A stretch of DNA of 27,965 bases from an uncultured Chitinophagales bacterium (GCA_964414155.1 CAYPVN010000005.1:1-27965), one strand, 5' to 3'. Counted from the first letter of the stretch, positions 5,302 to 26,733 are shown. Numbers and translations: made by a program. The notes: a model not told the origin generated them from the letters alone.

Positions 5302-6627
5302 CTAGTCATGAGGCTTATGGTTTAGTATCTTCTCTAACCTTTCCGCGTTCATCTTGTTCATGCGGAAACGGATCGTAATGGCATCTCCATCGTACGTCTT
5401 ATCAATGACCTCAGCAATATCGTGGATTTGTGAAATAATCTGGTAATCTTTCTGCCCAAAGGTCATCGTCTTCTCGGCGATATTGCTATCGAGAACCGTC
5501 ATGAGGTGTTCCTTCAATGATCCCAGGTTAATACCGCGTCCTGCCGAGATGAACACGGCATTCTCGTACTTGCGTGTCAGAGGGGCAACGATGCTTCGAT
5601 CTGCAAGTTTATCGATCTTGTTGAAGACCAGTATCGTTTCCTTGCCCTGCGCACCAATCTCCTCGAGTGTTTCATTGACGACGGCGATCTGCTCCTCGAA
5701 GAGCGGGTGGCTCACATCAACGACATGCAGGAGAATGTCCGCCTCTGCTACTTCCTCCAACGTGCTTTTGAATGATGCCACAAGAGTGTGCGGAAGCTTC
5801 CTGATGAACCCGACTGTATCAGAAAGTAGAATTTTTTGGGCGGGTGAAAGTGAAACAAGACGAACGGTTGAATCGAGCGTTGCAAAAAGCCTGTCCTCCA
5901 CCAGCACGTCTGCGTTGGAGAACCAATTGAGCAGCGTGGACTTTCCAACGTTTGTGTATCCAACAAGAGCCACGCGGGGAAACTTGTCGCGGCCCTTGCG
6001 TTGCACCGCCCGTTCTCCTGCGATCTGCTTCAACTTAGCTTTAAGATGACTGATCTTCGTGCGAATTGCGCGACGGTCAGTCTCTATTTGTGTTTCCCCC
6101 GGGCCCTTTGTCCCGATCCCACCATATTGTTTCGACAAGTGCGTCCACTGACGAGTCAACCGGGGAAGCATGTATTGCAATTGGGCAAGTTCTACCTGCA
6201 CTTTCGCCTCGCGCGTCCGTGCGCGTGATGCGAAAATGTCAAGGATAAGGCCGCTCCGATCGATGATCTTACAATTGATAATCCGTTCGAGATTACGGAT
6301 TTGCACGGAAGAAAGATCGTCATCGAATACAACGATGTTGATGCGCTTCTCGCCGACAAGCTTTCCAAGCTCATCTGCCTTCCCTTTGCCGATGAAGTAT
6401 GCGGCATCAATATTCTGTCGCTCCTGAACGATGCGGTGAACAACCTCTGCGCCAGCGGATTCCGCGAGGAGCGTCAACTCATCAAGGTACTCCTCAACGA
6501 TTGATCGCAGCGCGGCTTGTGTTGTTCGCTTCCCCGATATGTCGAATGGCCGCGCAACACCAACAAGTATGGCTCGTTCATGTTCGGCGGTCTCAATGAG
6601 CTGTATCTTTCCGTTCACCTTCGTCAA
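5302..6627 (-). CDS. hflX: Ribosome-splitting GTPase HflX
   Basis: G1 GYTNVGKST, G2 LFATLD, G3 DTVGF, G4 NKID, G5 SAG, plus HflX-specific GIGTKGPGETQIETDRR and ILDIFASRART. The start is TTG 6627 overlapping the upstream stop; GTG 6618 is an alternative. Confidence 0.97.
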   Translation of the reverse strand: MTKVNGKIQLIETAEHERAILVGVARPFDISGKRTTQAALRSIVEEYLDELTLLAESAGAEVVHRIVQERQNIDAAYFIGKGKADELGKLVGEKRINIVVFDDDLSSVQIRNLERIINCKIIDRSGLILDIFASRARTREAKVQVELAQLQYMLPRLTRQWTHLSKQYGGIGTKGPGETQIETDRRAIRTKISHLKAKLKQIAGERAVQRKGRDKFPRVALVGYTNVGKSTLLNWFSNADVLVEDRLFATLDSTVRLVSLSPAQKILLSDTVGFIRKLPHTLVASFKSTLEEVAEADILLHVVDVSHPLFEEQIAVVNETLEEIGAQGKETILVFNKIDKLADRSIVAPLTRKYENAVFISAGRGINLGSLKEHLMTVLDSNIAEKTMTFGQKDYQIISQIHDIAEVIDKTYDGDAITIRFRMNKMNAERLEKILNHKPHD

Positions 6628-8831
6628 CTTTTGACCGCCTGGGGAGATGCTTCATCCCCTTTTCCCGCTCGTCCAAGAGCCATCTCAATAAGAGCCAGAA
6701 CCACGGCCAGACCTATGAAGTATTTCCAGAGCTCCACGCCAAACCGCGACTCCATGACAACGGCATCGATTTTCTTCGCTGCCGGCAACACCGTTACTTG
6801 ATCAGCCCGCACACCAATGCTCCTCCAGAATGAAGCAATGTTCTTCTCGTCAATACGGTGGAGATTGGACTCCGCAGGATCAACATTGACCGGAATCGCT
6901 TGAATGATACCCTGCCCTTTGGGAGACCCTGACTGAGAATCAGAAACCCGTCGCAGGGAGTAAATGCCTACTTCGGCGGCATGTGAAGACTCAAACGTAG
7001 CAAGGCCGAAGGTTGATAGGAACCTCGGGGCAATTCGTTCATCGATGCCGCCCGGCGATGTCAGCGCGTACGATTCCCCATCTCTCTGGCCCTTCAAACG
7101 TGCCGTTACTTTTATATTTTCTCCTGCAACAAGCGAGGGTGAAGTCTGCCCCTGCGCGGCAAGATACACAGTTGCCCGGTGAAGAAGCGGTGCAAACAAC
7201 CCCTTCACAGGAAAGTCGGACCACCCGAGACCGGCCTGTACGGAAAACAAGAGCGTGCGACCGGAACCAGTGGGATACTCAGTCAAGAATCCTCCTCCGT
7301 TCGTGAGCCCGATGATCTGATGTCCCCTTACACCGGCTGTCGTACCAATAGCTTTGTAGACACGAGGAGATTCGACCGACGGCGTTGACGAGCGTCCCGA
7401 CTGCTGCTCGAACAATGTTGTGAAGAGAGGATGAGCAAAGTCGATTTTATCGAATGAAAGGAAACTCTGGACGTCGCCTGCCGCGCTTGTGGCATTGGCG
7501 TTTGCAGCCGATGCCTGGGGAACCGACAGTCGTGCAAACACCGTTTCGTTGTAGTTGGCGATGTTGGTTTCATTTCCCGGGAAGAGCATCAAACCGCCGC
7601 CGGCTTTCACAAACTGCGCGAGGCGTTCTGACTCAGTCGGGGAGAAACCCTTGAGATTGCTGCAGACGAGAACATCGAACCTGCCGATATCTGTTGCGGA
7701 GAGCTGCGCCTCCGTGATTTGCTGGGTTGCGAAGAGACCGGCGAAGCTTGTGTCTCCGCCAAGCGTCAGAGCGAGCTGCGGGATGCGAACGTCCTGTGCC
7801 GTCGCACCAACGAAAAGAACTTTGATGCTTGCAGGGACATTCAAAACAAAGAACCGCTTGTTGTCGAGTTCAAGAAGATCGTCGTCAATCTGAACGTACC
7901 CTTGCAATGAACCTCTGCGTTTCGGGATAACAGAGGCGTTGATCACCTCCGATCCGCCGGAGGCAATATCCAGCGATTGCTGGACAACTCTCGCGCCGTC
8001 AAGATACACGCTCAACATCCCATTTGTTATTGCTGTGTTGGAGAAGTTTCTTGCAAGGACTTGCAGGCTTGCCGGTTTGTTCAGTGTGATGATTTGAGTT
8101 TTGACTTCAACGGCTGAAAGACCGACGTTCCCCTGTCGTTGTATGCCTGTTTCGATCACGAACACCTTCGCCCGATTGTCAAAAAGATTTGTTGAATCGC
8201 TTGGCGCAGACGGCAGGAATTGAGTTTCCTGCTTGTCGGTGATAAGGTAGACTTCCTGGTTGAAGTTCTTTGATTCCGCAACAATCTTTGCAGCAATGCC
8301 CAACGCACTCCGGTATGATGCCGTCTCGTACGTGGGAGTAAGCTGGTCGAGCAATATTTTCAACGGCGCAGCCGCAAACGCCGGAGAATATGTTTCTCTA
8401 TGATGCACATCGGAGAGCTTGACGAGATACACCTCATCACCCTCTCTCATCAGGTCGACAATCCCCCCGGCCGCTTCCTTGGCCTGCGCAAAGAGAACGC
8501 CCCGCTCGTTTCGGACGGACATGCTTGGTGAATCGTCCAGTATGAGAACGATGGTCGTCCTTGCGTGCGTCCCGATTGTGCCAGCGAACGATCCCCTCAA
8601 CGCCGGACGCGAGAAAGCCATCACAAGGGCAATGATGATCAAGGTGCGAACAAGGAGAAGAAGAAGTTGTCGGATTCTCAGCCGGCGCATCTTGGTTTTC
8701 TGGAGTTCTTTCAGGAATTGGAGCGAGGAGAACTCAACGGTCTTGAGCTTGCGGAGGTTGAGAAGGTGAAGAATAATCGGGATTGCCGCTGCGGCAAGGC
8801 CAAAAAGAAGAAGGGGGTTGAGGAACGTCAT
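6624..8831 (-). CDS. BatA N-terminal domain + von Willebrand factor A domain membrane protein
   Basis: N-terminus MTFLNPLLLFGLAAAAIPIILHLLNLRK...FSSLQFL is the BatA double-TM motif. MIDAS-like DDSPSMS and YLITD follow, then an Ig-like region ending DNKRFFVL, a GATase-like segment (VKAGGGLMLFPG) and C-terminal TM ELWKYFIGLAVVLALIEMAL. Confidence 0.85.
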   Translation of the reverse strand: MTFLNPLLLFGLAAAAIPIILHLLNLRKLKTVEFSSLQFLKELQKTKMRRLRIRQLLLLLVRTLIIIALVMAFSRPALRGSFAGTIGTHARTTIVLILDDSPSMSVRNERGVLFAQAKEAAGGIVDLMREGDEVYLVKLSDVHHRETYSPAFAAAPLKILLDQLTPTYETASYRSALGIAAKIVAESKNFNQEVYLITDKQETQFLPSAPSDSTNLFDNRAKVFVIETGIQRQGNVGLSAVEVKTQIITLNKPASLQVLARNFSNTAITNGMLSVYLDGARVVQQSLDIASGGSEVINASVIPKRRGSLQGYVQIDDDLLELDNKRFFVLNVPASIKVLFVGATAQDVRIPQLALTLGGDTSFAGLFATQQITEAQLSATDIGRFDVLVCSNLKGFSPTESERLAQFVKAGGGLMLFPGNETNIANYNETVFARLSVPQASAANANATSAAGDVQSFLSFDKIDFAHPLFTTLFEQQSGRSSTPSVESPRVYKAIGTTAGVRGHQIIGLTNGGGFLTEYPTGSGRTLLFSVQAGLGWSDFPVKGLFAPLLHRATVYLAAQGQTSPSLVAGENIKVTARLKGQRDGESYALTSPGGIDERIAPRFLSTFGLATFESSHAAEVGIYSLRRVSDSQSGSPKGQGIIQAIPVNVDPAESNLHRIDEKNIASFWRSIGVRADQVTVLPAAKKIDAVVMESRFGVELWKYFIGLAVVLALIEMALGRAGKGDEASPQAVKS

Positions 8832-8875
8832 GAACTCCGATGCAATGCCTGTTAAAAACTGAAGCTCTCCTCGAA

Positions 8876-8905
8876 AAATTAGATCAAAAACAGAATGAAA
8901 TGCAA
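8876..8905 (-). promoter_or_regulatory. Putative sigma70 promoter for the BatA/VWA-hflX unit
   Basis: The minus strand reads TTGCAT (8905-8900), 18-nt spacer, TAATTT (8881-8876). Confidence 0.4.
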
Positions 8906-8959
8906 ACGAACCTGAAACAGCGTTCGTAGGATCGCCCTCATTTCGTCACTGATTAGCAG

Positions 8960-8988
8960 TTGCAACTCCCGCCGAATCTTCCTATCAT
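8960..8988 (+). promoter_or_regulatory. Putative sigma70 promoter for the Omp85 operon
   Basis: TTGCAA (8960-8965), 17-nt spacer, TATCAT (8983-8988), about 60 nt upstream of ATG 9050. Confidence 0.6.
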
Positions 8989-9049
8989 GAATTTGAATGT
9001 CACACCATCGTATTGTCTTCCAAGCTCCACTGTGATTGATGGGTCCGCG

Positions 9050-11878
9050 ATGAAGCAACACCTCTTGCGCTCTATAGTTTTCCTGCTCTCCCTCGTTTGC
9101 GCGGCAGAGGCATCTGCGCAATACTTCTACTTCGGCCGCAACAAGGTTCAGTACACCAATTTCGACTGGCACGTACTGAAGACCGAGCACTTCGATATCT
9201 ACTACTACCCCGAGATGAAAGACCTCGCCGAGCGGGGTGCATTCTTCGCCGAAGAAGCGTACAAGGAACTTGAGGTGAAGTTCAACCACAGCCTTACCAG
9301 TCGCACGCCGCTCATTTTTTACAGCTCGCACCTGCACTTCGAACAAACAAATACTACGGGTGGCTTTATTCCCGAAGGCGTGGGTGGGTTTTTTGAATTC
9401 CTCAAAGGGCGCGTCGTTATTCCCTCGGATGGCTCTGTGGCCGCGTTCCGGCACGTGATCCGGCATGAGCTTGTGCACGTGATGATGCACAGCAAGCTTT
9501 CGCGCGTTCTTATCGATCACCGAAAGCCACAGGATAAGACTCCGCCACTCTGGTTTATCGAAGGCCTTGCCGAGTATTGGTCCACCGATTGGGACACGCA
9601 AGCGGAAATGGTAATGCGTGACGCCGTACTGAGCGACATCGTTGTCGGGCTGAAGGACATGGACAAGATCTATGGCTCGTTCCTGATGTACAAGGAAGGC
9701 CAGAATGTTCTGCGATTTATCGGCCGGACGTACGGAGAGGAAAAAATCCTCCTGCTCATGGAGAATTTCTGGAAGGAGAATTCTTTCAGTGAAGTTTTCC
9801 GCATTACTCTCGGCAAATCCTACAAGGAGTTCGACGAAGAGTGGCTCTATGCTCTCAAGAAGGAGTATTACCCGCTCCTCGCAAGTTACGATGCACCGAG
9901 TAGTGTAACAGTCAATCTTGTCAAGGAAGGATTTAACTTCAAGCCGGTTGTTTTTGAACACGATACCACTCGCGAGGTGTTTTTCATTGGAAACAGGACG
10001 GGATATGCCGGCATCTACAAGAAGAGAATTGACGAGGTCAGCAGCGATGAAGCCGCGGAGAACGTCATTCAGGGTGAGCAGTCGGATGACTTCGAGGCTT
10101 TCCATCCATTCCGCAGCAAGATCGATATTTCTGCCAATGGAATGCTCGCGTTTGTCACCAAGAGCGGCGAAAACGACGTGCTTCATGTGTATGACGTGTT
10201 CAGCAATACCGTGGTGCAGACATTCCGGTTCAAGAATCTTGTCAGTATCGGTTCCGCCTCATGGGCCCCCGACGGCAAGCGTCTCGCTTTTACATCCATT
10301 GACATGTCGGGGAACAACGATCTGTATATTCTGAACACGGAAACACGCGAGTTGCGGAAACTGACCAACGATTACTATGACGATCGCGATCCTGCCTGGT
10401 CGCCTGATGGCAAGAGTATCGCGTTCAGTTCGGACAGAACTCCCTTCGGGAAGGACGGCAAATACAATCTGTTCCTGTGCGATGTTGAAGCGGGCACGAT
10501 TGATTATCTGACATACGGAAACGAGAATGCGTTGGCGCCCTCCTGGTCTCCGGATGGGTCGAAGATTGCCTTCACGTCTGATGCTGACGGCGCGCAAAAC
10601 ATCTGGATCATGGACGTCACCAAGCGCTTCGCGCGTGGCATGCGGTCAATGACGAAAGTGACATACTTTACGACAGCTGCCTTCGACCCGACTTGGACCA
10701 AATCGGGTGATCTGGTCTTCGCTGCGTTTGAGAAGTTCAGCTTCCAGATCAAAATGTTGAAGAACATTCAATCTGTAGCGGACAGATCGACAACGTTGAA
10801 GCTCGTCGACCTCTATAATAAAGAGAAACCATGGGAAACAAAGTCGATCTCCGGCGTCTCAAAGGTGCAATCCCTCAAATACACAGGTGAATACAGCCTC
10901 GATATCGCCCAGAGCGCCATCTCCACAGATCCTGTTTTCGGAACATCCGGCGGTGCCTTTGTTGCGCTGAGCGATTTGCTCGGCAACGACCAGTATTATT
11001 TCCTGCTCTACAACACCGCCCAATCGCAGGACGAGCTTCTCTCCAGTTTTAATCTTGCCATCTCCCGCATTTCCCTCAGCCAGAGGACAAGTTATGCCTA
11101 TGGAATTTACCGGTTCTCCGGAAGGCGATATGATCTGACGGACAAAGACCAATTCTTCTTTGAGCGGGCCTACGGCGGATATTTTGCGTTGAGTTACCCC
11201 CTTTCGAAATTCCAACGCGTAGAGGCATCCGTGAGTCTGACCAATTCAAATAAGGAAGTAGTTGGAACGATCGAGGACAGGAAAGCCCTCCTGCTTTCCA
11301 ATTCTCTCGCATTCACTCACGACAACTCATTATGGGGGCCGAGCGGGCCGCTGGATGGAAGTCGGTTCAATCTTACACTTGCTTTCACTTCCGACATACA
11401 ATATTCCAACGTCAACTATTACACTCTCATTGCTGACTACAGGACATATCTTCGTTTGTCACAACGGAGCGCGTTCGCTTCGCGCTTCTGGATTTTCTAC
11501 AACCACGGGAAAGAGTCCCGGAGATTTTTCATGGGAGGAAGCTGGGACTTGCGGGGATACCCGCGCTGGAGTATTCGCGGAGAGAAACTCTGGCTTATGA
11601 GTCAAGAGCTCCGGTTCCCCTTCATCGACCAATTTGCCGTACAGTTCCCGTTTGGCGGCGTGAGTTTCTGGTCGATCCGAGGAGCGCTGTTCTTTGATAT
11701 GGGAAGCGCGTGGGACAGGGAATATAAAGAGACTCTTGGCAGCATTGGCACCGGATTGCGGATGAACCTCGGTGGTGTCATTGTCCTCCGGTACGACATT
11801 GGCAAGAGGATAGAGAAGAGATTCTCACAACTCCAGCACGACCTCTTTCACCAGTTCTTCTTCGGATGGGATTTTTGA
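9050..11878 (+). CDS. Omp85-superfamily outer-membrane protein with an N-terminal zinc-metallopeptidase (gluzincin-like) domain and a PD40/TolB-like beta-propeller; no POTRA recognised
   Basis: Signal peptide MKQHLL...AEASA|Q from ATG 9050. HELVH (9464-9478) plus WFIEGLAEY. Repeats SWAPDGKRLAF, AWSPDGKSIAF and SWSPDGSKIAF. The barrel has the loop-6 motif DLRGY and a terminal FFFGWDF beta-signal. Confidence 0.85.
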   Translation: MKQHLLRSIVFLLSLVCAAEASAQYFYFGRNKVQYTNFDWHVLKTEHFDIYYYPEMKDLAERGAFFAEEAYKELEVKFNHSLTSRTPLIFYSSHLHFEQTNTTGGFIPEGVGGFFEFLKGRVVIPSDGSVAAFRHVIRHELVHVMMHSKLSRVLIDHRKPQDKTPPLWFIEGLAEYWSTDWDTQAEMVMRDAVLSDIVVGLKDMDKIYGSFLMYKEGQNVLRFIGRTYGEEKILLLMENFWKENSFSEVFRITLGKSYKEFDEEWLYALKKEYYPLLASYDAPSSVTVNLVKEGFNFKPVVFEHDTTREVFFIGNRTGYAGIYKKRIDEVSSDEAAENVIQGEQSDDFEAFHPFRSKIDISANGMLAFVTKSGENDVLHVYDVFSNTVVQTFRFKNLVSIGSASWAPDGKRLAFTSIDMSGNNDLYILNTETRELRKLTNDYYDDRDPAWSPDGKSIAFSSDRTPFGKDGKYNLFLCDVEAGTIDYLTYGNENALAPSWSPDGSKIAFTSDADGAQNIWIMDVTKRFARGMRSMTKVTYFTTAAFDPTWTKSGDLVFAAFEKFSFQIKMLKNIQSVADRSTTLKLVDLYNKEKPWETKSISGVSKVQSLKYTGEYSLDIAQSAISTDPVFGTSGGAFVALSDLLGNDQYYFLLYNTAQSQDELLSSFNLAISRISLSQRTSYAYGIYRFSGRRYDLTDKDQFFFERAYGGYFALSYPLSKFQRVEASVSLTNSNKEVVGTIEDRKALLLSNSLAFTHDNSLWGPSGPLDGSRFNLTLAFTSDIQYSNVNYYTLIADYRTYLRLSQRSAFASRFWIFYNHGKESRRFFMGGSWDLRGYPRWSIRGEKLWLMSQELRFPFIDQFAVQFPFGGVSFWSIRGALFFDMGSAWDREYKETLGSIGTGLRMNLGGVIVLRYDIGKRIEKRFSQLQHDLFHQFFFGWDF

Positions 11879-13035
11879 TGAGCCAACGTACACACACACT
11901 GCGATGGATCATCATTGCGACTCTCCTTCTGGCCGGTTGCGGTGGGCTCAAGGTTGGGTATCCGCTCAAGATCCGGGAAACTGACTGGCCCATGTTCGCC
12001 AGAACCGAAACACGAATCAATGCCACCTCGGAGGCCGTTGTTCCTCCACTATCGGTGGAGTGGCAGTACGATGTTTCCGGGGGCATTGGCACCGGCTCAC
12101 CGCTCATTGTGGATAGCGTTCTTATCGTCGGGAACATGCGTGGTGAGCTTCATGCGATTAACTCGTTCACTGGACGCCGGCTTGGGTGGCTTGGACTGGG
12201 GGATGCAATTGAGGGTTCTCCCATTATCGATGCGGGCGATGCAATTGTTGCAATATCGAATTCACGCCAGTCTCTCGTTTCCGTCGAACTTGCCACAGGA
12301 AGAATCATGTGGAAGATGGAATACGGTGACATCGTAAGCACCCCGTTGCTTCTTCAACAAAAGATCTATGTCGGCAATATCTCGGGTAAGTTTTTCTGCA
12401 TTAAGCGGGAAGATGGTGATTTGGTCTGGACGTTTACAATCCCCGAGAACACCCGGTATAAGGGGATTCGATCCTCTCCCGCCGGATACGCCAATACTAT
12501 CGTATTTGGTGCCGATGATGGTGCACTCTACGCGCTTGATGCGGGCACTGGAAGTCGACGCTGGTCGTTCGTGGTGGCCGCTCCCATAGTCGCGTCGCCT
12601 GCTATTGCAGACAGTAGCGTGTTTGTCGGTGCGATGGATGGAGTGTTCTATGCCATCGATCTCTCCTCAGGAAAACTGCGCTGGACGTTTCCAGCGGGAA
12701 CAAGTATCTATGCGAGCGCCGCCGTAGCGAATGATATGGTCTTGATCGGAACGACCGGTGGAACGCTCTTCGCTCTTAATAAAATTGATGGCTCCATGAT
12801 ATGGAAGACTGAACTGGAAAGCGTCATCAATGCTGGCGCGGTAATTTCAGGTACCATGGTTTATGTGGGAGCGCTCAACAAATATCTCTACGGTTTGACA
12901 ACTTCAGATGGCAAGATTGTCTGGAAGTATGAAATGCGAGGCCGAATAAAGACTCCGCCGGCAGTCGCAAATGGCCGTCTCTATGTAGCAACCGACGATC
13001 GATACGTGACAGCATTTCATGGATCCGGACTATGA
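11878..13035 (+). CDS. PQQ-like beta-propeller repeat lipoprotein (BamB-like)
   Basis: The ATG overlaps the upstream stop (TGATG). Lipobox LLAG-C. Repeated blades such as SSPA...VFGADDGALYALDAGTGSRRWSF and ASPA...VFVGAMDGVFYAIDLSSGKLRWTF. Confidence 0.88.
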   Translation: MSQRTHTLRWIIIATLLLAGCGGLKVGYPLKIRETDWPMFARTETRINATSEAVVPPLSVEWQYDVSGGIGTGSPLIVDSVLIVGNMRGELHAINSFTGRRLGWLGLGDAIEGSPIIDAGDAIVAISNSRQSLVSVELATGRIMWKMEYGDIVSTPLLLQQKIYVGNISGKFFCIKREDGDLVWTFTIPENTRYKGIRSSPAGYANTIVFGADDGALYALDAGTGSRRWSFVVAAPIVASPAIADSSVFVGAMDGVFYAIDLSSGKLRWTFPAGTSIYASAAVANDMVLIGTTGGTLFALNKIDGSMIWKTELESVINAGAVISGTMVYVGALNKYLYGLTTSDGKIVWKYEMRGRIKTPPAVANGRLYVATDDRYVTAFHGSGL

Positions 13036-13856
13036 GGACTTCACACAACCGCTCTGTAATCCTTTTCCTTTCGGCTTTCTCGGCCTTGATGAGTGCCAGG
13101 ATCGCAGCCCAAACACAACAACCAGATACATTGGGGTATATGCCCGAGACTTCAGTCGCCATACTTACCAATATTGACAGCAGTGTGGTCTTCGTCGACG
13201 CTGTGCGGAAGGGGCTCACTCCCCTTTCACTCAGCGACCTCACTCCTGGAACTCATCATCTCGTGTTGCAGCATCCTGATGCTGAAAGCTGGCTTACGAG
13301 CAGCATAGCGGACAGCATTCGGGTGGTTTCCGGGCAGCCGCTGACGCTGCGTTACAGGTTCGAACCGCGCTATCTGATTCAATCGATCCCGTTTGACGCT
13401 GAGGTTGTTCTTGCTGATTCAGTAATTGGTAGGACACCATTGGCTTTTTCAGGAGGGCCCTCTCTCCTCCTCGACAAAAAGACTACTCTCACTCTTCGGA
13501 AACCGGGATATGAAACAGGTACATTCGATATGGGAATGGCACAACATGGTGTTCTGTCGGTTACTCTAAAAAATCTATGGGAAACGAACGGGGACCAGGA
13601 GGCAATCTTCCGATCAGACAACGGCCAGATATCCAAACCGCTTCGCCTGACATTGGCAATAGCTGGTACTGTGCTTTCAGGTACTGCGGCGGCATACTTC
13701 AAGATAAAAGCTGATGATCGCTATCTCGAATATCGGCGTTCAGGAAATCCTGATCTCCTTGCACAATCGCAACGGTTGGATACCGCCGCCGCCGTTGCAT
13801 TTGTTGCCACTCAAATAGGGCTTGGATTGTTCACGTATTTTGTCCTTTCCAACTAA
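13032..13856 (+). CDS. PEGA-domain protein with a signal peptide and a C-terminal hydrophobic helical hairpin
   Basis: ATGA overlap with the upstream gene. Two PEGA-like units (VFVDAVRKGLTPL...PGTHHLVL; SIPFDAEVVLADSVIGRTPL...RKPGY). Two hydrophobic segments at the C-terminus. Confidence 0.75.
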   Translation: MRTSHNRSVILFLSAFSALMSARIAAQTQQPDTLGYMPETSVAILTNIDSSVVFVDAVRKGLTPLSLSDLTPGTHHLVLQHPDAESWLTSSIADSIRVVSGQPLTLRYRFEPRYLIQSIPFDAEVVLADSVIGRTPLAFSGGPSLLLDKKTTLTLRKPGYETGTFDMGMAQHGVLSVTLKNLWETNGDQEAIFRSDNGQISKPLRLTLAIAGTVLSGTAAAYFKIKADDRYLEYRRSGNPDLLAQSQRLDTAAAVAFVATQIGLGLFTYFVLSN

Positions 13857-13893: not shown

Positions 13894-13909
13894 CTTGACT
13901 TTAATCACA
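13894..13909. promoter_or_regulatory. Crp/Fnr-type operator overlapping the -35 of the crp promoter
   Basis: CTTGA-CTTTAA-TCACA matches 8/10 of TGTGA-N6-TCACA, with a perfect right half-site. Confidence 0.5.
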
Positions 13910-13923
13910 CAAGCGACTATATT
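13895..13923 (+). promoter_or_regulatory. Sigma70 promoter for crp-PHP-ribH
   Basis: TTGACT (13895-13900), 17-nt spacer, TATATT (13918-13923). Both hexamers are identical to those at 19560-19588. Confidence 0.75.
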
Positions 13924-13942
13924 TTCTGCGGGAAAAACAGTT

Positions 13943-14680
13943 ATGCCTGCCCATCCGGGTGTTCCAACAACCAACGAGGCGACTCTGGACCTGACGATGA
14001 AAAATGAAGTCGAGTTCCTCAAGAACGTACCGATTTTGTGCGATCTTGAGCCCATGGACCTCGACACGATAGCCAAGGTAGGCATCCGTAAGAAGTACAA
14101 GAAGGGAAGCATTATCCTGCTGGAGGAAGAGGCGGGGGCGGCGTTGTTCGTAATCATTTCCGGCAAGGTGAAAATTGTCCGGATGGATGACGACGCAAGA
14201 GAGGTGATACTCTCCATTCTCGGAGAAAGTGACTTCTTCGGTGAGATGGCGATCCTAGACGGATTGGCCCGGTCGGCCAGCGTGGTTGCCATTGCAAAAT
14301 CGGAACTCTTCATGATCCATCGGAGAGATTTCCTGAAACTGTTGCACGATTTCCCCTCTGTTGCGATCGCTCTGCTGAAAGAGCTGACTATGCGTCTTCG
14401 CAAAGCCGACTCGCAAATCAAGAGCCTCTCCCTCAAAGACGCGGCAGGACGTGTGGCAAACGTCGTTCTCCAGCTCGCCGACGATATCGGTAAGATTCGT
14501 AAGGGGCGCGTTGAGATCGACGAGCTTCCTCTCCAGCAAGATCTTGCCAACATGGCCGGCACCTCCCGAGAAACCATCTCCCGAATGATCCACGCCTTCA
14601 TCCGTGATGGACACCTTGAACTTGAGCGGGGGAAATTGATTATCAACGATTATGAGAAGTTCAAAAGCAGGTACCTCTAA
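13943..14680 (+). CDS. Crp/Fnr family transcriptional regulator with a cyclic-nucleotide-binding domain
   Basis: cNMP pocket FFGEMAILDGLARSASVVA and HTH QQDLANMAGTSRETISR (CRP-like R-E-x-x-x-R). The start is ATG 13943 or ATG 13997. The ORF track's TTG 13895 is the -35 box. Confidence 0.93.
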   Translation: MPAHPGVPTTNEATLDLTMKNEVEFLKNVPILCDLEPMDLDTIAKVGIRKKYKKGSIILLEEEAGAALFVIISGKVKIVRMDDDAREVILSILGESDFFGEMAILDGLARSASVVAIAKSELFMIHRRDFLKLLHDFPSVAIALLKELTMRLRKADSQIKSLSLKDAAGRVANVVLQLADDIGKIRKGRVEIDELPLQQDLANMAGTSRETISRMIHAFIRDGHLELERGKLIINDYEKFKSRYL

Positions 14681-14715
14681 GCTCCCCCCTGAACGTACAG
14701 AGCATTCGGTCGTGC

Positions 14716-15537
14716 ATGGATGGTAAGGCTGATCTTCACATGCACACCACGCACTCCGATGGCGTGTTCACGACAGAGGAATTGCTTCGCCGCGTGAAGG
14801 ATGTCGGACTGACAACCATCAGCATCACCGATCATGACAATGTCGGAGCCATCGATGAGGCGATCCAAGTCGGAAAAACTCTGGGCGTTGAAGTCATTTC
14901 GGGAGTTGAACTCAGTTCGACGGTAGGCGAGCAGGACGTTCATATCCTCGGATACTTCATTGATCATAAGAGTCAAAACCTGCTGGACTACCTGGCTTTT
15001 TTCCGGATCGAAAGGGTAAGGCGCGCTGAACGGATCGTGGGGAAGCTGAACGATTTGAACATCCCGTTGAAGATTGAATCGGTGTTGGAGCAAGCAGGCG
15101 AGGGTTCCGTAGGCAGACCGCACATTGCAAATGCGTTGCTGGAAGAAGGGCTGACGGGGAGTTATCACGAGGCATTCTCAAAATACATCGGGTTTGGCAA
15201 ACCTGCATATCAGAAAAAATACCAGGTCTCCCCACAGGCAGCAGTTGAATTGATCTCTTCAGCCGGAGGTTTATCGTTCGTCGCCCACCCGGGCAACAGC
15301 ATCGACGAGAAGGTGCTGTTGGGACTGATTAATGATGGAGTGGACGGTATCGAAGTGATTCATCCTTCTCACTCTCCCGAACGTGTATCGCATTACAGCG
15401 GAATTGTCAGCGAGTATTTTCTCCTTGCAAGCGGGGGCTCGGATTTTCACGGCGGAAAAAGAAACGATCTGGATTTACTTGGACAGTATTACATACCAGA
15501 ACGCCAGGTTGAAACCATGCGGCGGCATCTGCGATAA
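14716..15537 (+). CDS. PHP-domain phosphoesterase (YciV/TrpH-like)
   Basis: DLHMHTTHSDG, ITDHD, GVELS, HILGY, GRPHIA, AHP, GIEV and GGSDFHG motifs. Confidence 0.92.
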   Translation: MDGKADLHMHTTHSDGVFTTEELLRRVKDVGLTTISITDHDNVGAIDEAIQVGKTLGVEVISGVELSSTVGEQDVHILGYFIDHKSQNLLDYLAFFRIERVRRAERIVGKLNDLNIPLKIESVLEQAGEGSVGRPHIANALLEEGLTGSYHEAFSKYIGFGKPAYQKKYQVSPQAAVELISSAGGLSFVAHPGNSIDEKVLLGLINDGVDGIEVIHPSHSPERVSHYSGIVSEYFLLASGGSDFHGGKRNDLDLLGQYYIPERQVETMRRHLR

Positions 15538-15588
15538 TTGAGCGATCGTATCCGGTTTTTTTCTTATAACTTGGAATGAATTGGGTTT

Positions 15589-16080
15589 ATGGTACAATCA
15601 ATTGAAGGACAACTGTCCGGTGAGGGGTATTCGTTCGGCATCGTGGTGAGCCGTTTCAACAGTCTCGTCACGAACCAGTTGCTTGCTGGTGCACTTGATT
15701 GCCTGCGACGTCACGGAGCGGCGGAAAGCAATATCACCGTGGTCCATTGTCCTGGCGCATTCGAAATTCCGCAGATCGCTCATCAACTGGCGAACGCAGG
15801 AAAGGTCGATGCCGTCATCTGCCTTGGATGCATCATCCGCGGTGAAACACCTCACTTCGAATACATTGCAACGGCAGTTGCAAACGGCGTCAGTCGCATC
15901 GCTCTTGATACGGGCGTTCCCGTAGCGTTCGGCGTGCTCACAACAGAGACGCTCGAGCAGGCACTTGAACGTGCCGGTGCGAAAGCGGGCAATAAGGGTT
16001 GGGATGCCGCCATGTCCGCACTTGAACTCGTCCACGTAAGAAAGCAACTCTCTGAGGGAAGGAAACGATCCAAGAATTGA
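15589..16080 (+). CDS. ribH: 6,7-dimethyl-8-ribityllumazine synthase
   Basis: [41 protein letters not shown] and NKGWDAA. Confidence 0.97.
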
Positions 16081-16118
16081 TAAGAATTCATGCTGTGGTA
16101 GCCATGCATAATTCTTAT
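16080..16118 (+). other. Long intergenic inverted repeat/hairpin between ribH and the porZ-like gene
   Basis: ATAAGAATT (16080-16088) pairs with AATTCTTAT (16110-16118). ATGC/GCAT and GTGG/CCAT extend the stem around a TAG loop. Confidence 0.7.
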
Positions 16119-16132
16119 ATGGTGATATGATC

Positions 16133-18403
16133 ATGTCGAAACGAGGGTTGGTCTTTTCTCTGGTTGTCTTGCTGGCGTTGCTCGAAGTCAATGCCGGGGT
16201 GGGAGCGTGGCGGAACTTCACATCGATGAAGGACGTTACCAGCCTTTCCGCACACGACGGTTTGATTTGGGCTGCAACTTCGGGGGGACTATTCGCCTGG
16301 GATCAAGCCAAGGATGTGTATCAGCAGTTCACAAATGCCGAGGGTTTGAAGAGCGTTGATCTAACCGCGCTGGCGATCGATCAAAAGGGGGATATCTGGA
16401 CCGGAACCTCAACCGGCATCATCCACATCTACTCCCCCCGATCAAACACATGGCGGTACGTCCTTGACATCGCACTGGCAAACCAGACAAAGAAGAGAAT
16501 CAACGCCCTCACCATACATGGCGATACCGTTCTGATCAGCACCGATTTTGGGCTGAGCGTTCTTAAATTACAGAACCTCGAATTCGGCGACACCTACAAG
16601 AGATTTGGCAATCTTCCATCGAACCTCCGGCTTGGATCTCTTTCTTCTTCGATCTACGACGGCAAAATCTGGATTGCTATCACCGATTCGGTGACAAACC
16701 ATCGAATTGCGGTTGCTGATCTTTCAGGCCCAAACCTGCTCGCACCGGAATCATGGTCTTTACAGGTTGTTGGCTCGAACGATACGATCAAGACCTTGTC
16801 TGTGTTTAACAATTCGTTATATGCAGGAACGAGCCGGGGTTTGTACACGTATTCAAATGGGTCATGGAATCCGATTGCATCAACCACCGGCCTGAATATT
16901 GTCAGCCTGACCTCATCCGGAACTCTGCTGGCTATCTCTAGCATGTCCGGAAGAGTTGACACAATGAATCAGCAGGGAACCAGTGGACAATTTGGATCAG
17001 GCTTTTCATTTTCTCCAAAATCCATTACACTCAATTCGTCCGGAAAGCCGGTTATCGGCGCGTTCGAGGGCGGGGTACTTACCTTTACAAATGCGTGGAT
17101 TTCCCACGCGCCAAATGGACCGGCATCAAATCAATTCCTGCAAGTAACTGTGGATGATGATGGGGTTGTATGGGGTGCATCCGGAAGCACAAATGGAAGG
17201 GGCTTCTATCGATACAACGGCAAAAGTTGGAAATCGTTTACCATGGAAAACAGTGGACTTCCGACAAACAATTACTACCATGTGTCCGTAGGATGCAACG
17301 GGTCCGTCTGGGCAAGTTCTTGGGGTCGAGGCATGGTTGAAATACCGCGCGGATCCGACATGATTGATTCATCCAATATTTATGGTCGTAATGTGGGAAT
17401 GATAGGGCTGTCGAATGATACTAACTTCGTCGTAGTAACGTCTGTGGTTTGCGACAATTCTGGGAACCACTGGATGTCCGTTAACCAACCCGCCAACTCA
17501 AGGGTTCTCACGGTTCAAAAAGCTGACGGCACGTGGAGGCATCTGTTTGCAAGGGTGGCAGGAACGAACATCAGCACACTCTTCAACAGTTTGCCCATTG
17601 ATAGAAACTTTACTGTGGATGGGTTTGGTACTCTGTGGGGCGTAGCGAGGCAGGGCAACTTCCAGGGAGTGTTCTCACTCGGTAACCGCGGAGCAATTGA
17701 AGACTCCGTTGACTACTTCCTTACCGTTTCAGATGGATTGCCGAGTAACGATGTTGCTACAATAGTGACCGACCGGGAAGGCGATATCTGGGTTGGAACC
17801 GATCGAGGAATTGCCATAATACTGGATCCATCAAATCCAAAGAGGACAGGTGGCATCGCCTCTTACAAGCCGTTGAACGGCCTTTCAATTAACACTATTG
17901 CCGTCGATCCGATAAACCAAAAATGGGTCGGTACGGCCGAGGGGGTGATCGTTCTTTCACAAGACGGAACTCAGCAAATTGCTTCGTATACGGTTGCCAG
18001 CACCGATGGAAGGCTGATTGATAATGATGTCAAGAGTATTGCCATCGATGCGAAATCGGGTACTGTCTATTTCGGTACGCTCCTTGGCCTGGCGAGCATT
18101 ACGACTGCGGCAGCTACTCCAAAACAGACTTTTGATGAAATCCTAACCTATCCCAATCCTTATATCATTCCGAACACAACGACCGTGACAATTGATGGTC
18201 TTGTTGGACGGTCAGCCATTAAGATTCTCTCAATCGATGGACATTTGGTTCGCGACATTATCACACCGGGAGGCCGGATCGGGTTCTGGGACGGAAAGGA
18301 TGAAGAGGGAAAGGACGTTTCATCGGGTATTTACATTGTTGTCGCCTATTCCGAAGATGGGAGCCAAACCGCCACCGGCAAGGTTGCGGTGGTTAGAAGA
18401 TAG
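16133..18403 (+). CDS. PorZ-like two-component-regulator beta-propeller protein with a C-terminal T9SS type-A sorting/FlgD-Ig-like domain
   Basis: Signal peptide, N-terminal WRNFTS, and propeller repeats (GDIWTGT, GVVWGAS, GDIWVGTDRGI, NQKWVGTAEGV, VYFGTLLGLAS). CTD: YPNPY...IKILSIDGHLVRDI...WDGKDEEGKDVSSGIYIV...TGKVAVVRR. The start is ATG 16133 (GGTGA SD) or ATG 16127. Confidence 0.8.
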   Translation: MSKRGLVFSLVVLLALLEVNAGVGAWRNFTSMKDVTSLSAHDGLIWAATSGGLFAWDQAKDVYQQFTNAEGLKSVDLTALAIDQKGDIWTGTSTGIIHIYSPRSNTWRYVLDIALANQTKKRINALTIHGDTVLISTDFGLSVLKLQNLEFGDTYKRFGNLPSNLRLGSLSSSIYDGKIWIAITDSVTNHRIAVADLSGPNLLAPESWSLQVVGSNDTIKTLSVFNNSLYAGTSRGLYTYSNGSWNPIASTTGLNIVSLTSSGTLLAISSMSGRVDTMNQQGTSGQFGSGFSFSPKSITLNSSGKPVIGAFEGGVLTFTNAWISHAPNGPASNQFLQVTVDDDGVVWGASGSTNGRGFYRYNGKSWKSFTMENSGLPTNNYYHVSVGCNGSVWASSWGRGMVEIPRGSDMIDSSNIYGRNVGMIGLSNDTNFVVVTSVVCDNSGNHWMSVNQPANSRVLTVQKADGTWRHLFARVAGTNISTLFNSLPIDRNFTVDGFGTLWGVARQGNFQGVFSLGNRGAIEDSVDYFLTVSDGLPSNDVATIVTDREGDIWVGTDRGIAIILDPSNPKRTGGIASYKPLNGLSINTIAVDPINQKWVGTAEGVIVLSQDGTQQIASYTVASTDGRLIDNDVKSIAIDAKSGTVYFGTLLGLASITTAAATPKQTFDEILTYPNPYIIPNTTTVTIDGLVGRSAIKILSIDGHLVRDIITPGGRIGFWDGKDEEGKDVSSGIYIVVAYSEDGSQTATGKVAVVRR

Positions 18404-25916: not shown

Positions 25917-26693
25917 ATGGGTTGGATCAAGAGACTTCGTGACAGGTTCTCCCCAAAGCCTGAAATTACCGACCAGCGGGAGATCACTCAAAAGACCCTC
26001 CTGCGCACCAACATCAAGAAGTTCCAGCAGATCCTCGGTTACGCGATCCGCAATCAGGATTTCTTTGTGCAGGCACTTCTCCATCGTTCCTTTCTGCACC
26101 GATCGAATCAGCCGGGACGCTCGAATGAACGCCTTGAATTTCTCGGTGATTCTATTTTGAACCTGATCGTCGGTGAGTATCTCTATCGCCATTTCCCCCA
26201 TGCAGAAGAAGGTGAGCTCACCAAACTCCGCTCCAGACTGGTCAACCGAAAAGCACTTGCTGCATACGCAAAGGAAATCAAGCTGTCCGAGTTCATCCTC
26301 ATGAGCTCAAGTGCAGCACAGTCTGTCGGGAAGGGATCGGAGACGATCGCGGCCGATACGTACGAGGCAGTCATCGCAGCCATCTATCTCGACGGCGGTT
26401 TTGGGGCAGCAAAGAAATTTGTGGAGCGGCAGATCCTTGCAGCGATGAAGAGTGGTACAGTCATCACATCCGACGAGAACTACAAGAGCATGCTGCTTGA
26501 GTATGCACAGTCCAAAGGGCTTGGCGTGCCGCGTTATACGATCGTCAATGAATATGGACCCGATCATGATCGAACGTTTACCGTTGAAGTGACGTTGAAT
26601 GGCATGAAGGGTGGATCGGGAACCGGCAAGAATAAGAAAGAGGCCGAGCAGGCGGCTGCAAGTCAGGCACTTGAAAAACTGCTCAACTCCTGA
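25917..26693 (+). CDS. rnc: Ribonuclease III
   Basis: HRS, NERLEFLGDSIL signature and ADTYEAVIAAIYLDGG, then a C-terminal dsRBD (NYKSMLLEYAQ...GPDHDRTF...KKEAEQAAA). Confidence 0.97.
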   Translation: MGWIKRLRDRFSPKPEITDQREITQKTLLRTNIKKFQQILGYAIRNQDFFVQALLHRSFLHRSNQPGRSNERLEFLGDSILNLIVGEYLYRHFPHAEEGELTKLRSRLVNRKALAAYAKEIKLSEFILMSSSAAQSVGKGSETIAADTYEAVIAAIYLDGGFGAAKKFVERQILAAMKSGTVITSDENYKSMLLEYAQSKGLGVPRYTIVNEYGPDHDRTFTVEVTLNGMKGGSGTGKNKKEAEQAAASQALEKLLNS

Positions 26694-26733
26694 ATCGCCG
26701 CTCGCATCGAGCATTCACAACGTATGCAATACG

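What the first reader, a model, noticed from the sequence alone, without database searches (positions are those of the whole stretch)
9050..13856. Three-gene, translationally coupled outer-membrane module: protease-Omp85 + BamB-like lipoprotein + PEGA protein (candidate uncharacterised envelope machine)
Seen: the three genes are joined by TGATG (11876-11880) and ATGA (13032-13035) overlaps. They sit behind one TTGCAA-N17-TATCAT promoter, and the next gene has its own promoter, so the unit looks self-contained. All three products carry export signals (SPI, SPII lipobox, SPI). Established: BamA (Omp85) works with the PQQ-type propeller lipoprotein BamB, and the periplasmic zinc protease BepA does quality control for BAM substrates in Proteobacteria. 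Inference: this operon may encode a BAM-parallel insertase or quality-control complex with the protease built into the barrel protein and a dedicated BamB-like partner. I know of no functional characterisation of this arrangement, but I cannot search to confirm novelty.
Basis: partly seen in the sequence, partly recalled or inferred. Interest (0 to 1): 0.75.

Follow-up and report, generated by a model that had tools for sequence, protein, structure and literature searches.

The report
Protease-propeller Omp85 barrel with two partners
Three overlapping genes in an Ignavibacteria-type genome encode an outer-membrane barrel that carries its own zinc peptidase and propeller, a BamB-shaped lipoprotein that is always inherited with it, and a small PEGA membrane protein; the unit is real and widely conserved, but what it does has never been tested.

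Summary
Genes at 9050-11878, 11878-13035 and 13032-13856 overlap by TGATG and ATGA.

- Gene 1: signal peptide, M1/M9-like gluzincin peptidase, six-bladed TolB-like propeller and a 16-strand Omp85 barrel, with no POTRA.
- Gene 2: a PQQ-type propeller lipoprotein.
- Gene 3: a signal peptide, PEGA domains and a conserved C-terminal helical hairpin.

The order gene 1, gene 2, gene 3 is kept in 35 of 40 orthologous loci from 17 families of the phylum, while the flanking genes change. All 48 genomes with a gene 1 orthologue also have a gene 2-like gene. It is unlinked in two and divergent in two. None of about 150 other genomes has a full-length gene 2 orthologue. Gene 3 is dispensable.

A separate BamA equivalog exists in this genome. 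The BAM-like reading is only partly supported:
- gene 2 misses the BamB equivalog cut-off;
- gene 1 lacks the POTRA that BamB binds;
- the peptidase is not BepA-like (M48).

The fused barrel type was catalogued in 2014 as 'WD40-Omp85' and never characterised. I found no paper on the partner genes. This scan has met the same module at least ten times in other genomes.

Best reading: an outer-membrane-anchored, periplasm-facing peptidase complex for envelope protein turnover. That function is inferred, not shown.

The parts
8960..8988 (+). sigma-70-like TTGCAA-N17-TATCAT upstream of gene 1 (weak candidate only)
   Evidence: It is present, at 9 of 12 matches. The region holds 4 such sites against 4.7 expected by chance.
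9050..11878 (+). gene 1: signal peptide, gluzincin peptidase, TolB-like propeller and Omp85 barrel (942 aa)
   Evidence: Pfam and NCBIfam hits. AF2 model pLDDT 84, pTM 0.82. More than 6800 homologues.
9050..9118 (+). gene 1 signal peptide (residues 1-23, cleavage ASA|Q; Gln24 invariant)
   Evidence: Read from the sequence. Q24 is invariant in 48 sequences.
9167..9889 (+). gene 1 peptidase domain (residues ~40-280)
   Evidence: Catalytic residues are HELVH at 9464-9478, the third zinc ligand Glu171 at 9560-9562 and Tyr214 at 9689-9691. H139, E140, H143, E171 and Y214 are invariant. The domain model matches M1, M9 and M61 peptidases in Foldseek. hhalign to this genome's own M1 peptidase gives E 5e-6.
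9902..10789 (+). gene 1 six-bladed TolB-like (PD40) propeller (residues ~285-580)
   Evidence: PD40 94 bits. VIA-align to TolB 1c5k gives Z 26.9, rmsd 2.3 A over 242 residues. phmmer to TolB chains gives 5e-18.
10871..11875 (+). gene 1 16-strand Omp85 barrel (residues ~608-942)
   Evidence: The L6 motif LRGY lies at 11549-11560, FFDMG on strand 13, and the C-terminus is GWDF. PF01103 scores 49 bits (cut-off 24). 16 strands in the model. Matches BamA 8xnb (Z 23.8), Sam50 and TamA. R835, G836 and D883 are invariant.
11878..13035 (+). gene 2: PQQ-type beta-propeller lipoprotein (alternative start 11866; lipobox Cys at 11938-11940)
   Evidence: PQQ_2 152 bits. TIGR03300 223 bits, below its 285 cut-off. 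The lipobox Cys is invariant in 30 orthologues. Strict co-occurrence with gene 1.
13032..13856 (+). gene 3: signal peptide, two PEGA domains and a conserved C-terminal two-helix hairpin
   Evidence: The hairpin covers residues 204-272 (13641-13847). PEGA 40 bits, two stretches. The hairpin, with its fixed 27-residue polar loop, is the most conserved part. No PDB relative by sequence.

Best explanation
The three genes are one conserved operon. It encodes an outer-membrane-anchored, periplasm-facing zinc peptidase complex.

**Gene 1, catalytic and anchoring subunit**
- A C-terminal 16-strand Omp85 barrel sits in the outer membrane.
- In place of POTRA domains it holds an M1/M9-like gluzincin peptidase with a complete catalytic set.
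- A six-bladed TolB-like propeller lies next to the peptidase. It probably selects or gates substrates.

**Gene 2, obligate partner**
- It is a lipid-anchored PQQ-type propeller with no Bacteroidota surface-export signal.
- It probably acts as an adaptor or scaffold that recruits substrates or stabilises the complex.

**Gene 3, accessory subunit**
- It is dispensable.
- Its PEGA domains lie in the periplasm. Its conserved C-terminal helical hairpin anchors it in a membrane, most likely the inner one, which would make the assembly trans-envelope.

**Likely role:** turnover or quality control of envelope proteins or peptides, working beside the canonical BAM rather than replacing it.

**Shown:** domain content, intact catalytic and Omp85 motifs, conserved gene order, and strict co-occurrence of genes 1 and 2.

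**Inferred:** physical complex, periplasmic topology, substrates, and membrane placement of gene 3.
For: **Domains and motifs**
- Pfam and NCBIfam domain hits.
- H139, E140, H143, E171, Y214, R835, G836 and D883 are invariant in 48 sequences, including two paralogues.

**Structure**
- AF2 model of gene 1: pLDDT 84, pTM 0.82, with six blades and 16 strands.
- TolB Z 26.9. BamA, Sam50 and TamA barrels Z 21-24.
- Peptidase domain nearest to M1, M9 and M61.
- The hhalign alignment to this genome's own M1 peptidase covers HExxH, the Glu ligand and the catalytic Tyr.

**Gene order**
- Gene 2 after gene 1 in 38 of 40 loci and gene 3 after gene 2 in 35 of 40, across 17 families, while the flanks change.
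- 55 of 67 and 48 of 64 in named Ignavibacteria, Melioribacter, Kryptonia-type and Calditrichaeota records.

**Co-occurrence**
- 46 genomes have a full-length gene 2 orthologue (197 bits or more), and all of them carry a gene 1 orthologue.
- Two of these keep the two genes unlinked on different contigs.
- No genome without a gene 1 orthologue has one.

**Other**
- Overlapping junctions and the lipobox are conserved.
- Gene 2 orthologues have no acidic cluster after the lipid Cys.
- BamA is encoded elsewhere in the genome.
Against: - No interaction, topology or activity was tested or modelled. No multimer prediction was possible.
- The domain order enzyme-X-Omp85 barrel also fits a type Vd-like self-exported surface protease.
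- The conserved Omp85 L6 and strand-13 motifs suggest the barrel may do more than anchor.
- The gene 3 hairpin has only moderate hydropathy (Kyte-Doolittle 1.0-1.9) and a roughly neutral loop. Its membrane and orientation are uncertain.
- Gene 3 is absent from some complete genomes.
- Part of the synteny within the class reflects general conservation of gene order.
- Expression is unproven. Only three short contigs inside gene 1 come from a run labelled metatranscriptomic, and that run may be DNA.
Confidence: 0.5

Rival explanations
1. BAM-parallel insertase or quality-control machine. The gene 1 barrel uses an Omp85 lateral gate to insert, or to extract and degrade, beta-barrel substrates. 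Gene 2 plays the BamB role and the built-in peptidase plays the BepA role.
For: - The barrel is closest to BamA, Sam50 and TamA and keeps the L6 RG(Y/W) and FxDxG motifs.
- Gene 2 has the BamB fold and lipid anchor.
- Genes 1 and 2 strictly co-occur.
Against: - There is no POTRA (only about 40 residues between propeller and barrel). The substrate-handling arm and the BamB docking site are therefore missing.
- Gene 2 falls below the BamB equivalog cut-off and is nearer in sequence to non-BamB PQQ propellers.
- The peptidase is not M48.
- The L6 and strand-13 motifs are shared by all Omp85 proteins, including translocases.
Confidence: 0.2
2. Type V-like self-export. The peptidase and propeller are a passenger threaded through the Omp85 barrel to the cell surface, as proposed for the patatin-Omp85 protein PlpD. 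They would act as a surface protease for feeding.
For: - The domain order enzyme then Omp85 barrel parallels PlpD.
- Heinz and Lithgow raised the same pair of topologies for another enzyme-Omp85 subfamily (PMC4104836).
- M9- and M1-like peptidases are often extracellular.
Against: - PlpD has a POTRA domain and gene 1 has none.
- TolB-like propellers are periplasmic.
- The obligate partner is a lipoprotein without the acidic Bacteroidota surface-export signal.
- Gene 3 carries a membrane hairpin.
- These lineages export surface proteases by T9SS, and this window holds a PorZ-like gene.
Confidence: 0.12
3. Tol-Pal-like envelope tether. The TolB-like propeller binds a Pal/OmpA-type peptidoglycan-associated protein, and gene 3 links to the inner membrane. 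The module would stabilise the outer membrane or act at division, with the peptidase trimming partners.
For: - The propeller matches TolB best.
- No TolB equivalog above its cut-off was found in this genome, which is 85% complete.
- A 2025 study proposes barrel-TolB-like proteins as relatives or ancestors of TolB (PMC12204202).
Against: - TIGR02800 scores 124 bits against a 343 cut-off.
- No Pal, TolQ, TolR or TolA genes lie next to the operon.
- The invariant catalytic residues point to a working peptidase as the core function.
- The genome has three such paralogues.
Confidence: 0.1
4. The three genes are merely neighbours with unrelated functions, kept together by general synteny.
For: Housekeeping genes upstream are also syntenic within the class.
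Against: - The triad persists where both flanks differ (window, L041, L053, L067, L071, L073, L076).
- Presence and absence of genes 1 and 2 match across 200 genomes, even where the genes are unlinked.
- The overlapping junctions are conserved.
Confidence: 0.03

Closest known systems
'WD40-Omp85' subfamily of the Omp85/TpsB superfamily (Heinz & Lithgow 2014, PMC4104836); also called 'OMP-TolB-like / FhaC-TolB-like' proteins (PMC12204202, 2025)
   Same: An N-terminal TolB-like propeller joined to a C-terminal Omp85 barrel without POTRA, found in the Bacteroidetes/Chlorobi/Ignavibacteria group. Gene 1 is a member.
   Different: Those papers are catalogues. They report no function, and their main text gives no analysis of the gluzincin domain and no mention of the gene 2 and gene 3 partner genes. 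A 2024 paper summarises the class as 'WD40 and peptidase domains' (PMC11358297).
BAM complex (BamA with the BamB lipoprotein) and the BepA protease
   Same: An Omp85 barrel, an eight-blade-type PQQ propeller lipoprotein encoded as a partner, and a periplasmic zinc protease in the same functional neighbourhood.
   Different: - There are no POTRA domains, which are the BamB docking site.
- Gene 2 is below the BamB equivalog cut-off.
- The peptidase is M1/M9-like and fused to the barrel, not a free M48-TPR protein.
- The genome has its own BamA.
TAM (TamA with inner-membrane-anchored TamB) as a trans-envelope Omp85 machine
   Same: An Omp85 barrel encoded in an operon with a partner that is probably anchored in the other membrane.
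   Different: Gene 3 is a small PEGA protein, not an AsmA-like lipid-transfer groove. Gene 1 lacks POTRA. Gene 3 is dispensable in some lineages.
PlpD (type Vd secretion: patatin-POTRA-Omp85)
   Same: An enzyme domain placed N-terminal to a 16-strand Omp85 barrel in one polypeptide.
   Different: PlpD has a POTRA and a lipase passenger. Here there is a peptidase plus a propeller, with no POTRA and with dedicated partner genes.
Propeller-gated peptidases (Tricorn, prolyl oligopeptidase/DPP-IV) and protease-lipoprotein adaptor pairs (Prc-NlpI)
   Same: A peptidase combined with a beta-propeller that could filter substrates, and a protease working with an outer-membrane lipoprotein adaptor.
   Different: The catalytic classes differ (serine against zinc gluzincin). 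None of these is fused to an Omp85 barrel. The resemblance is functional analogy from general knowledge and was not tested here.

Membership tests
Omp85 superfamily | C-terminal 16-strand barrel matching PF01103 above its cut-off | tested here: met
   PF01103 49.1 bits against a cut-off of 24. 16 strands in the model. BamA barrel Z 23.8, rmsd 3.7 A, 301 residues aligned.
Omp85 superfamily | Loop 6 (V/I)RG(F/Y) motif and strand-13 (F/G)xDxG motif | tested here: met
   LRGY at residues 834-837 and FFDMG at 881-885. R835, G836 and D883 are invariant in 48 sequences. The motif definitions come from general knowledge of the family.
BamA / TamA / TpsB (POTRA-bearing Omp85) | one or more periplasmic POTRA domains before the barrel | tested here: not met
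   No PF07244 hit at E up to 0.1. TIGR03303 scores 30.7 bits against a 297 cut-off. Only about 40 residues lie between propeller and barrel. The same search finds POTRA in the C33 and C1 proteins of this genome.
WD40-Omp85 subfamily (Heinz & Lithgow 2014) | TolB-like beta-propeller N-terminal to an Omp85 barrel | tested here: met
   PD40 94 bits. TolB Z 26.9 over model residues 307-577. The definition is read in PMC4104836.
BamB (TIGR03300 equivalog) for gene 2 | score above the curated equivalog cut-off | tested here: not met
   223.4 bits against a 285.2 cut-off. PDB BamB chains score E 1e-19, against 1e-30 for an archaeal PQQ propeller.
BamB for gene 2 | PQQ-type propeller with an N-terminal lipobox | tested here: met
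   PQQ_2 152.6 bits. The LLAGC lipobox Cys is invariant in 30 orthologues.
BamB for gene 2 | binds BamA POTRA3 | not testable with these tools
   No multimer prediction was on hand. The genetically linked partner, gene 1, has no POTRA at all.
BepA / M48 peptidase for the gene 1 N-domain | M48 fold with HExxH plus TPR domain | tested here: inconclusive
   No M48 or TPR Pfam hit appeared at E up to 0.1. All 50 listed Foldseek matches (of at least 500 counted at E up to 10) are M1, M9, M61 or other non-M48 entries, with no M48 entry among them. Absence from a list does not exclude the family. The positive evidence points to M1/M9-like.
M1 aminopeptidase family for the gene 1 N-domain | HExxH-X18-E zinc site, catalytic Tyr and GxMEN exopeptidase motif | tested here: inconclusive
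   HExxH, the Glu ligand and the Tyr align to this genome's own M1 enzyme (hhalign 86%, E 5e-6). The spacing is X27 rather than X18, the GxMEN region does not align, and there is no PF01433 hit. It is best filed as a clan MA gluzincin with no family assigned. Peptidase_MA_2 scores 30.5 bits against a 32.4 cut-off, while the paralogue on contig C7 scores 49 bits.
TolB (TIGR02800 equivalog) for the gene 1 propeller | score above the equivalog cut-off; tol-pal gene context | tested here: not met
   124.5 bits against a 343 cut-off. No tol or pal genes lie in the window.
Type Vd autotransporter (PlpD-like) | passenger, then a single POTRA, then an Omp85 barrel; passenger exposed at the surface | tested here: not met
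   POTRA is absent. Surface exposure cannot be tested here.

The most novel reading that the evidence does not exclude
The module is a BAM-independent, trans-envelope 'disposal' machine. The POTRA-less Omp85 barrel opens laterally to capture misassembled or surplus outer-membrane proteins or lipoproteins and feeds them to its own propeller-gated zinc peptidase. The gene 2 propeller acts as substrate receptor and the gene 3 product couples the complex to the inner membrane. This would be a new functional class of Omp85 protein: degradation rather than insertion or secretion.
Probability: 0.12. Interest if true: 0.85.

Novelty: new variant of a known kind. Interest (0 to 1): 0.5.

Why it matters
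Omp85 proteins are the core of outer-membrane biogenesis (BAM, TAM, two-partner secretion, and their mitochondrial and plastid relatives). Every characterised member works through POTRA domains.

Here a large and strongly conserved branch replaces POTRA with an intact zinc peptidase and a TolB-like propeller. It has thousands of sequences, and the orthologues compared here are 42-83% identical across the phylum. It is inherited together with a BamB-shaped lipoprotein.

If the proteins form a complex, this would be a third kind of Omp85-based envelope machine, found across Ignavibacteria, Rhodothermia-type lineages and, by earlier notes of this scan, several further FCB-group phyla. It would also bear on the origin of TolB (PMC12204202).

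For this window itself the result is ordinary. It is one more member of that module.

Tried and rejected
- **Expression.** No RNA holder was listed for the stretch. One run labelled metatranscriptomic (possibly DNA) gave three short contigs inside gene 1 and none over either junction. Co-transcription could not be judged.
- **Promoter and terminator.** Scans give no more sites than shuffled sequence. The 'own promoter' argument is dropped.
- **Upstream genes as extra components.** The conserved block upstream in relatives (FMN_dh, polyprenyl synthase, HPr, PtsI, PGI-like) is housekeeping and is absent from this window. It is not part of the module.
- **Gene 3 and the paralogue's neighbour.** hhalign of the gene 3 profile against the DUF5683 protein next to the paralogue on contig C6 showed no relation (prob 0.2%).
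- **Gene 3 structure.** Gene 3 has no PDB relative by sequence. The ESM Atlas returned only unnamed PEGA clusters.
- **Peptidase profile against PDB sequences.** The only hit was marginal, an M9 collagenase at E 0.09. The fold search was needed.
- **GxMEN-type exopeptidase motif.** It was not supported by the alignment.
- **Newer Pfam families.** PF26549 and PF26550, listed for the homologues, are not in the local library, so their names could not be read.
- **Literature.** Omp85+PD40, Omp85+PEGA and Omp85+TolB+peptidase+POTRA gave nothing relevant. The Bacteroidota BAM structure paper does not mention such proteins.


Full report
**What is in the sequence**

- Gene 1 runs from ATG 9050 to the stop at 11876-11878 (942 aa).
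- Gene 2 starts at ATG 11878, inside TGATG at 11876-11880, and ends at 13035. An in-frame ATG at 11866 is forced by the conserved GWDF codons of gene 1.
- Gene 3 starts at ATG 13032, inside ATGA at 13032-13035, and ends at 13856.

The export signals can be read directly.
- Gene 1 has a classical signal peptide ending ASA|Q.
- Gene 2 has the lipobox LLAGC.
- Gene 3 has a basic start followed by a hydrophobic stretch.

TTGCAA-N17-TATCAT is at 8960-8988. A consensus scan finds 4 promoter-like sites in the region against 4.7 in shuffles, and no terminator after gene 3. The promoter argument therefore carries no weight.

**Gene 1**

Pfam finds PD40 repeats (94 bits), Omp85 (49 bits, cut-off 24) and Peptidase_MA_2 (30.5 bits, just under 32.4). 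It finds no POTRA.

An AF2 model built from 48 sequences has pLDDT 84 and pTM 0.82. It shows four parts:
- a helical peptidase domain;
- six four-stranded blades;
- a linker of about 40 residues;
- 16 barrel strands.

Structure comparisons give these matches.

| Part | Best match | Score |
|---|---|---|
| Propeller | TolB 1c5k | Z 26.9, rmsd 2.3 A, 242 residues |
| Barrel | Deinococcus BamA 8xnb | Z 23.8 |
| Barrel | F. johnsoniae BamA | Z 22.1 |
| Barrel | Sam50 and TamA | Z 21-22 |

Foldseek agrees.

The peptidase domain was also folded alone (pLDDT 83).
- It is nearest to M1 aminopeptidase catalytic domains, M9 collagenase peptidase domains (TM 0.55-0.58) and M61.
- A profile comparison with this genome's own M1 enzyme aligns HELVH with HELAH, WFIEGLAEY with WLNEGFATY and MYKEG with IYDRG (86%, E 5e-6).
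- These are the zinc ligands, the catalytic Glu and the catalytic Tyr.
- The GxMEN exopeptidase region does not align.

H139, E140, H143, E171 and Y214 are invariant across 48 sequences, including two paralogues. So are the Omp85 loop-6 RG and the strand-13 Asp. Gene 1 is therefore an intact clan MA gluzincin and TolB-like propeller on a POTRA-less Omp85 barrel.

**Genes 2 and 3**

Gene 2 is a PQQ_2 propeller (152 bits).
- It scores 223 bits on the BamB equivalog model, below the 285 cut-off.
- By sequence its nearest natural solved relatives are an archaeal PQQ propeller (1e-30) and kinase-linked propellers (1e-25). BamB chains come at 1e-19.

Gene 3 has two PEGA stretches and no solved relative.
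- Its most conserved part is the C-terminus: two moderately hydrophobic helices around a polar loop of 27 residues in 29 of the 30 aligned orthologues.
- That region carries the only invariant residues of the protein.
- Two distant orthologues keep little else.

**Is the unit conserved?**

I took every full-length gene 1 orthologue found in 200 genomes of the phylum and fetched 40 loci from 17 GTDB families. The choice did not look at the neighbours.

| Test | Result |
|---|---|
| Gene 2 directly downstream, same strand | 38 of 40 loci |
| Gene 3 after gene 2 | 35 of 40 loci |
| Same tests, 80 named records (Ignavibacteria, Melioribacter roseus, Ca. Chrysopegis kryptomonas, Calditrichaeota genome bins) | 55 of 67 and 48 of 64 |
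| Gene 1 stop overlaps gene 2 start by 1 base | 12 loci |
| Gene 1 stop overlaps gene 2 start by 4 bases | 8 loci |

The flanks vary. Most relatives have housekeeping genes upstream. This window has a divergent BatA-VWA gene and hflX instead. The triad survives these changes. The gene 2 lipobox is kept throughout.

The reverse test is the strongest. A gene 2 profile searched over the same 200 genomes finds 46 genomes with full-length hits of 197 bits or more.
- All 46 are genomes that carry a gene 1 orthologue.
- In two of them (G125, G113) the genes lie on different contigs, yet both are kept.
- Two further gene 1 genomes have a divergent gene 2 next to gene 1.
- The next best PQQ propellers are partial hits of 152 bits or less in proteins of about 600 aa.
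- So 48 of 48 gene 1 genomes have gene 2, and none of about 150 others has a full-length orthologue.

Related genomes are not independent, so I give no statistic.

Gene 3 was not found anywhere in three 99-100% complete genomes that keep genes 1 and 2. It is accessory.

**Genome context**

The window comes from a 2.1-Mb, 85%-complete metagenome bin of Ignavibacteria type. The best named relative is an 'Ignavibacteriae bacterium' groundwater bin at 81% identity. The DNA occurs in sediment and freshwater-sediment metagenomes.

The genome encodes:
- a true BamA equivalog (C33, 379 bits, cut-off 297; POTRA hits) and a second POTRA-Omp85;
- no BamB or TolB equivalog above cut-off;
- two more peptidase-PD40-Omp85 paralogues, on contigs C7 and C6. 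Neither has gene 2-like or gene 3-like neighbours, and no second copy of gene 2 or gene 3 exists.

**How it probably works**

The partner proteins look periplasmic.
- Gene 2 orthologues lack the acidic surface-export signal after the lipid Cys.
- Gene 3 has an export signal and a hydrophobic hairpin.

In all studied Omp85 proteins the N-terminal domains face the periplasm. I therefore favour an outer-membrane-anchored, periplasm-facing peptidase complex.
- Gene 1 is the catalytic subunit.
- Gene 2 is an obligate adaptor or scaffold.
- Gene 3 is an optional membrane-anchored accessory, possibly bridging to the inner membrane.

The role would be envelope protein or peptide turnover. Only the parts list and the genetic linkage are shown. 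Complex formation, topology and substrates are inferred.

The rivals are a BAM-like insertase with quality control, a PlpD-like self-exported surface protease, and a Tol-Pal-like tether. The rival section weighs each. Mere neighbourhood is disfavoured.

**Comparison with what is known**

Heinz and Lithgow (2014, PMC4104836) defined a 'WD40-Omp85' subfamily with a TolB-like propeller. They called it reminiscent of a BamA-BamB fusion.

A 2024 paper summarises that class as 'WD40 and peptidase domains' (PMC11358297).

A 2025 paper proposes barrel-TolB-like proteins as relatives of TolB's ancestor (PMC12204202).

The 'Metallo' subfamily of the 2014 paper is a different one, defined by PF00149.

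None of these reports function or partner genes. I found no paper linking Omp85 with PD40 or PEGA.

Gene 1 is thus a member of a catalogued but uncharacterised subfamily. The obligate lipoprotein partner and the PEGA accessory are, as far as I could search, not in the literature.

**Earlier notes of this scan**

The same module was reported at least ten times in other genomes, including Zixibacteria, KSB1 and Rhodothermales. Those notes reached the same closest-known family and the same 'partly supported' verdicts. I reached my reading before opening them. They agree with it and extend the range to further phyla, which I did not test.

**Verdict**

This window adds one ordinary member of a widespread, conserved and experimentally untouched Omp85-based module. 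Interest is moderate: it is a clear target for experiment, but neither new to this scan nor mechanistically resolved here.

Noticed in passing
window 26611-27963 (+), runs off the 3' end: A further Omp85-family gene (PF01103 68.9 bits; TIGR03303 92 bits, covering profile positions 324-710) lies directly after the fab/rnc genes and is cut by the contig end.
   Followed up: partly
own genome, C7:19158-22283 (+) = L079:8159-11284, and C6:21770-25060 (-) = L080:11771-15061: There are two more peptidase_MA-PD40-Omp85 paralogues (1041 and 1096 aa) without gene 2 or gene 3 neighbours. The C6 copy lies between a T9SS C-terminal-sorting-domain protein and a DUF5683 protein. The C7 copy lies between RNase R and a histidine kinase, with an AsmA/YhdP-like gene further upstream.
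   Followed up: partly
window 8832-9049: In most relatives gene 1 is preceded by FMN_dh, polyprenyl synthase, HPr, PtsI and PGI-like genes. Here that block is replaced by a divergent BatA-VWA gene (6624-8831, minus strand) and hflX. A rearrangement breakpoint therefore lies just upstream of gene 1.
   Followed up: partly
window 13895-18403: The crp-type regulator, PHP-domain gene, ribH and a PorZ-like (T9SS) propeller gene follow the triad here and in several relatives (clusters c8, c10, c12 and c9). In lineages without gene 3 the crp gene directly follows gene 2.
   Followed up: no
gene 1 residues 24-40 (window 9119-9169) and 99-112 (9344-9385): Two segments are nearly invariant across the phylum but modelled with low confidence (pLDDT about 40-66). 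One is the mature N-terminus QYFYFGRNKVQYTNFDW. The other is a Gly-rich loop before the HExxH helix. They are candidates for a docking peptide and an active-site flap.
   Followed up: no
own genome C33:4464-6443 (-) and C33:6563-6838 (-): The first 85 or so profile positions of the BamA equivalog match a separate frame piece upstream of the main ORF. This may be a frameshift, an assembly error or a weakly matching linker.
   Followed up: no
window 10481-10760, 10823-11080, 11340-11582, 13930-14100: Short contigs at 99% identity or more come from a freshwater-sediment run labelled metatranscriptomic (flagged as possibly DNA). They lie inside gene 1 and the crp gene. At best this is a weak hint of expression in the field.
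   Followed up: partly
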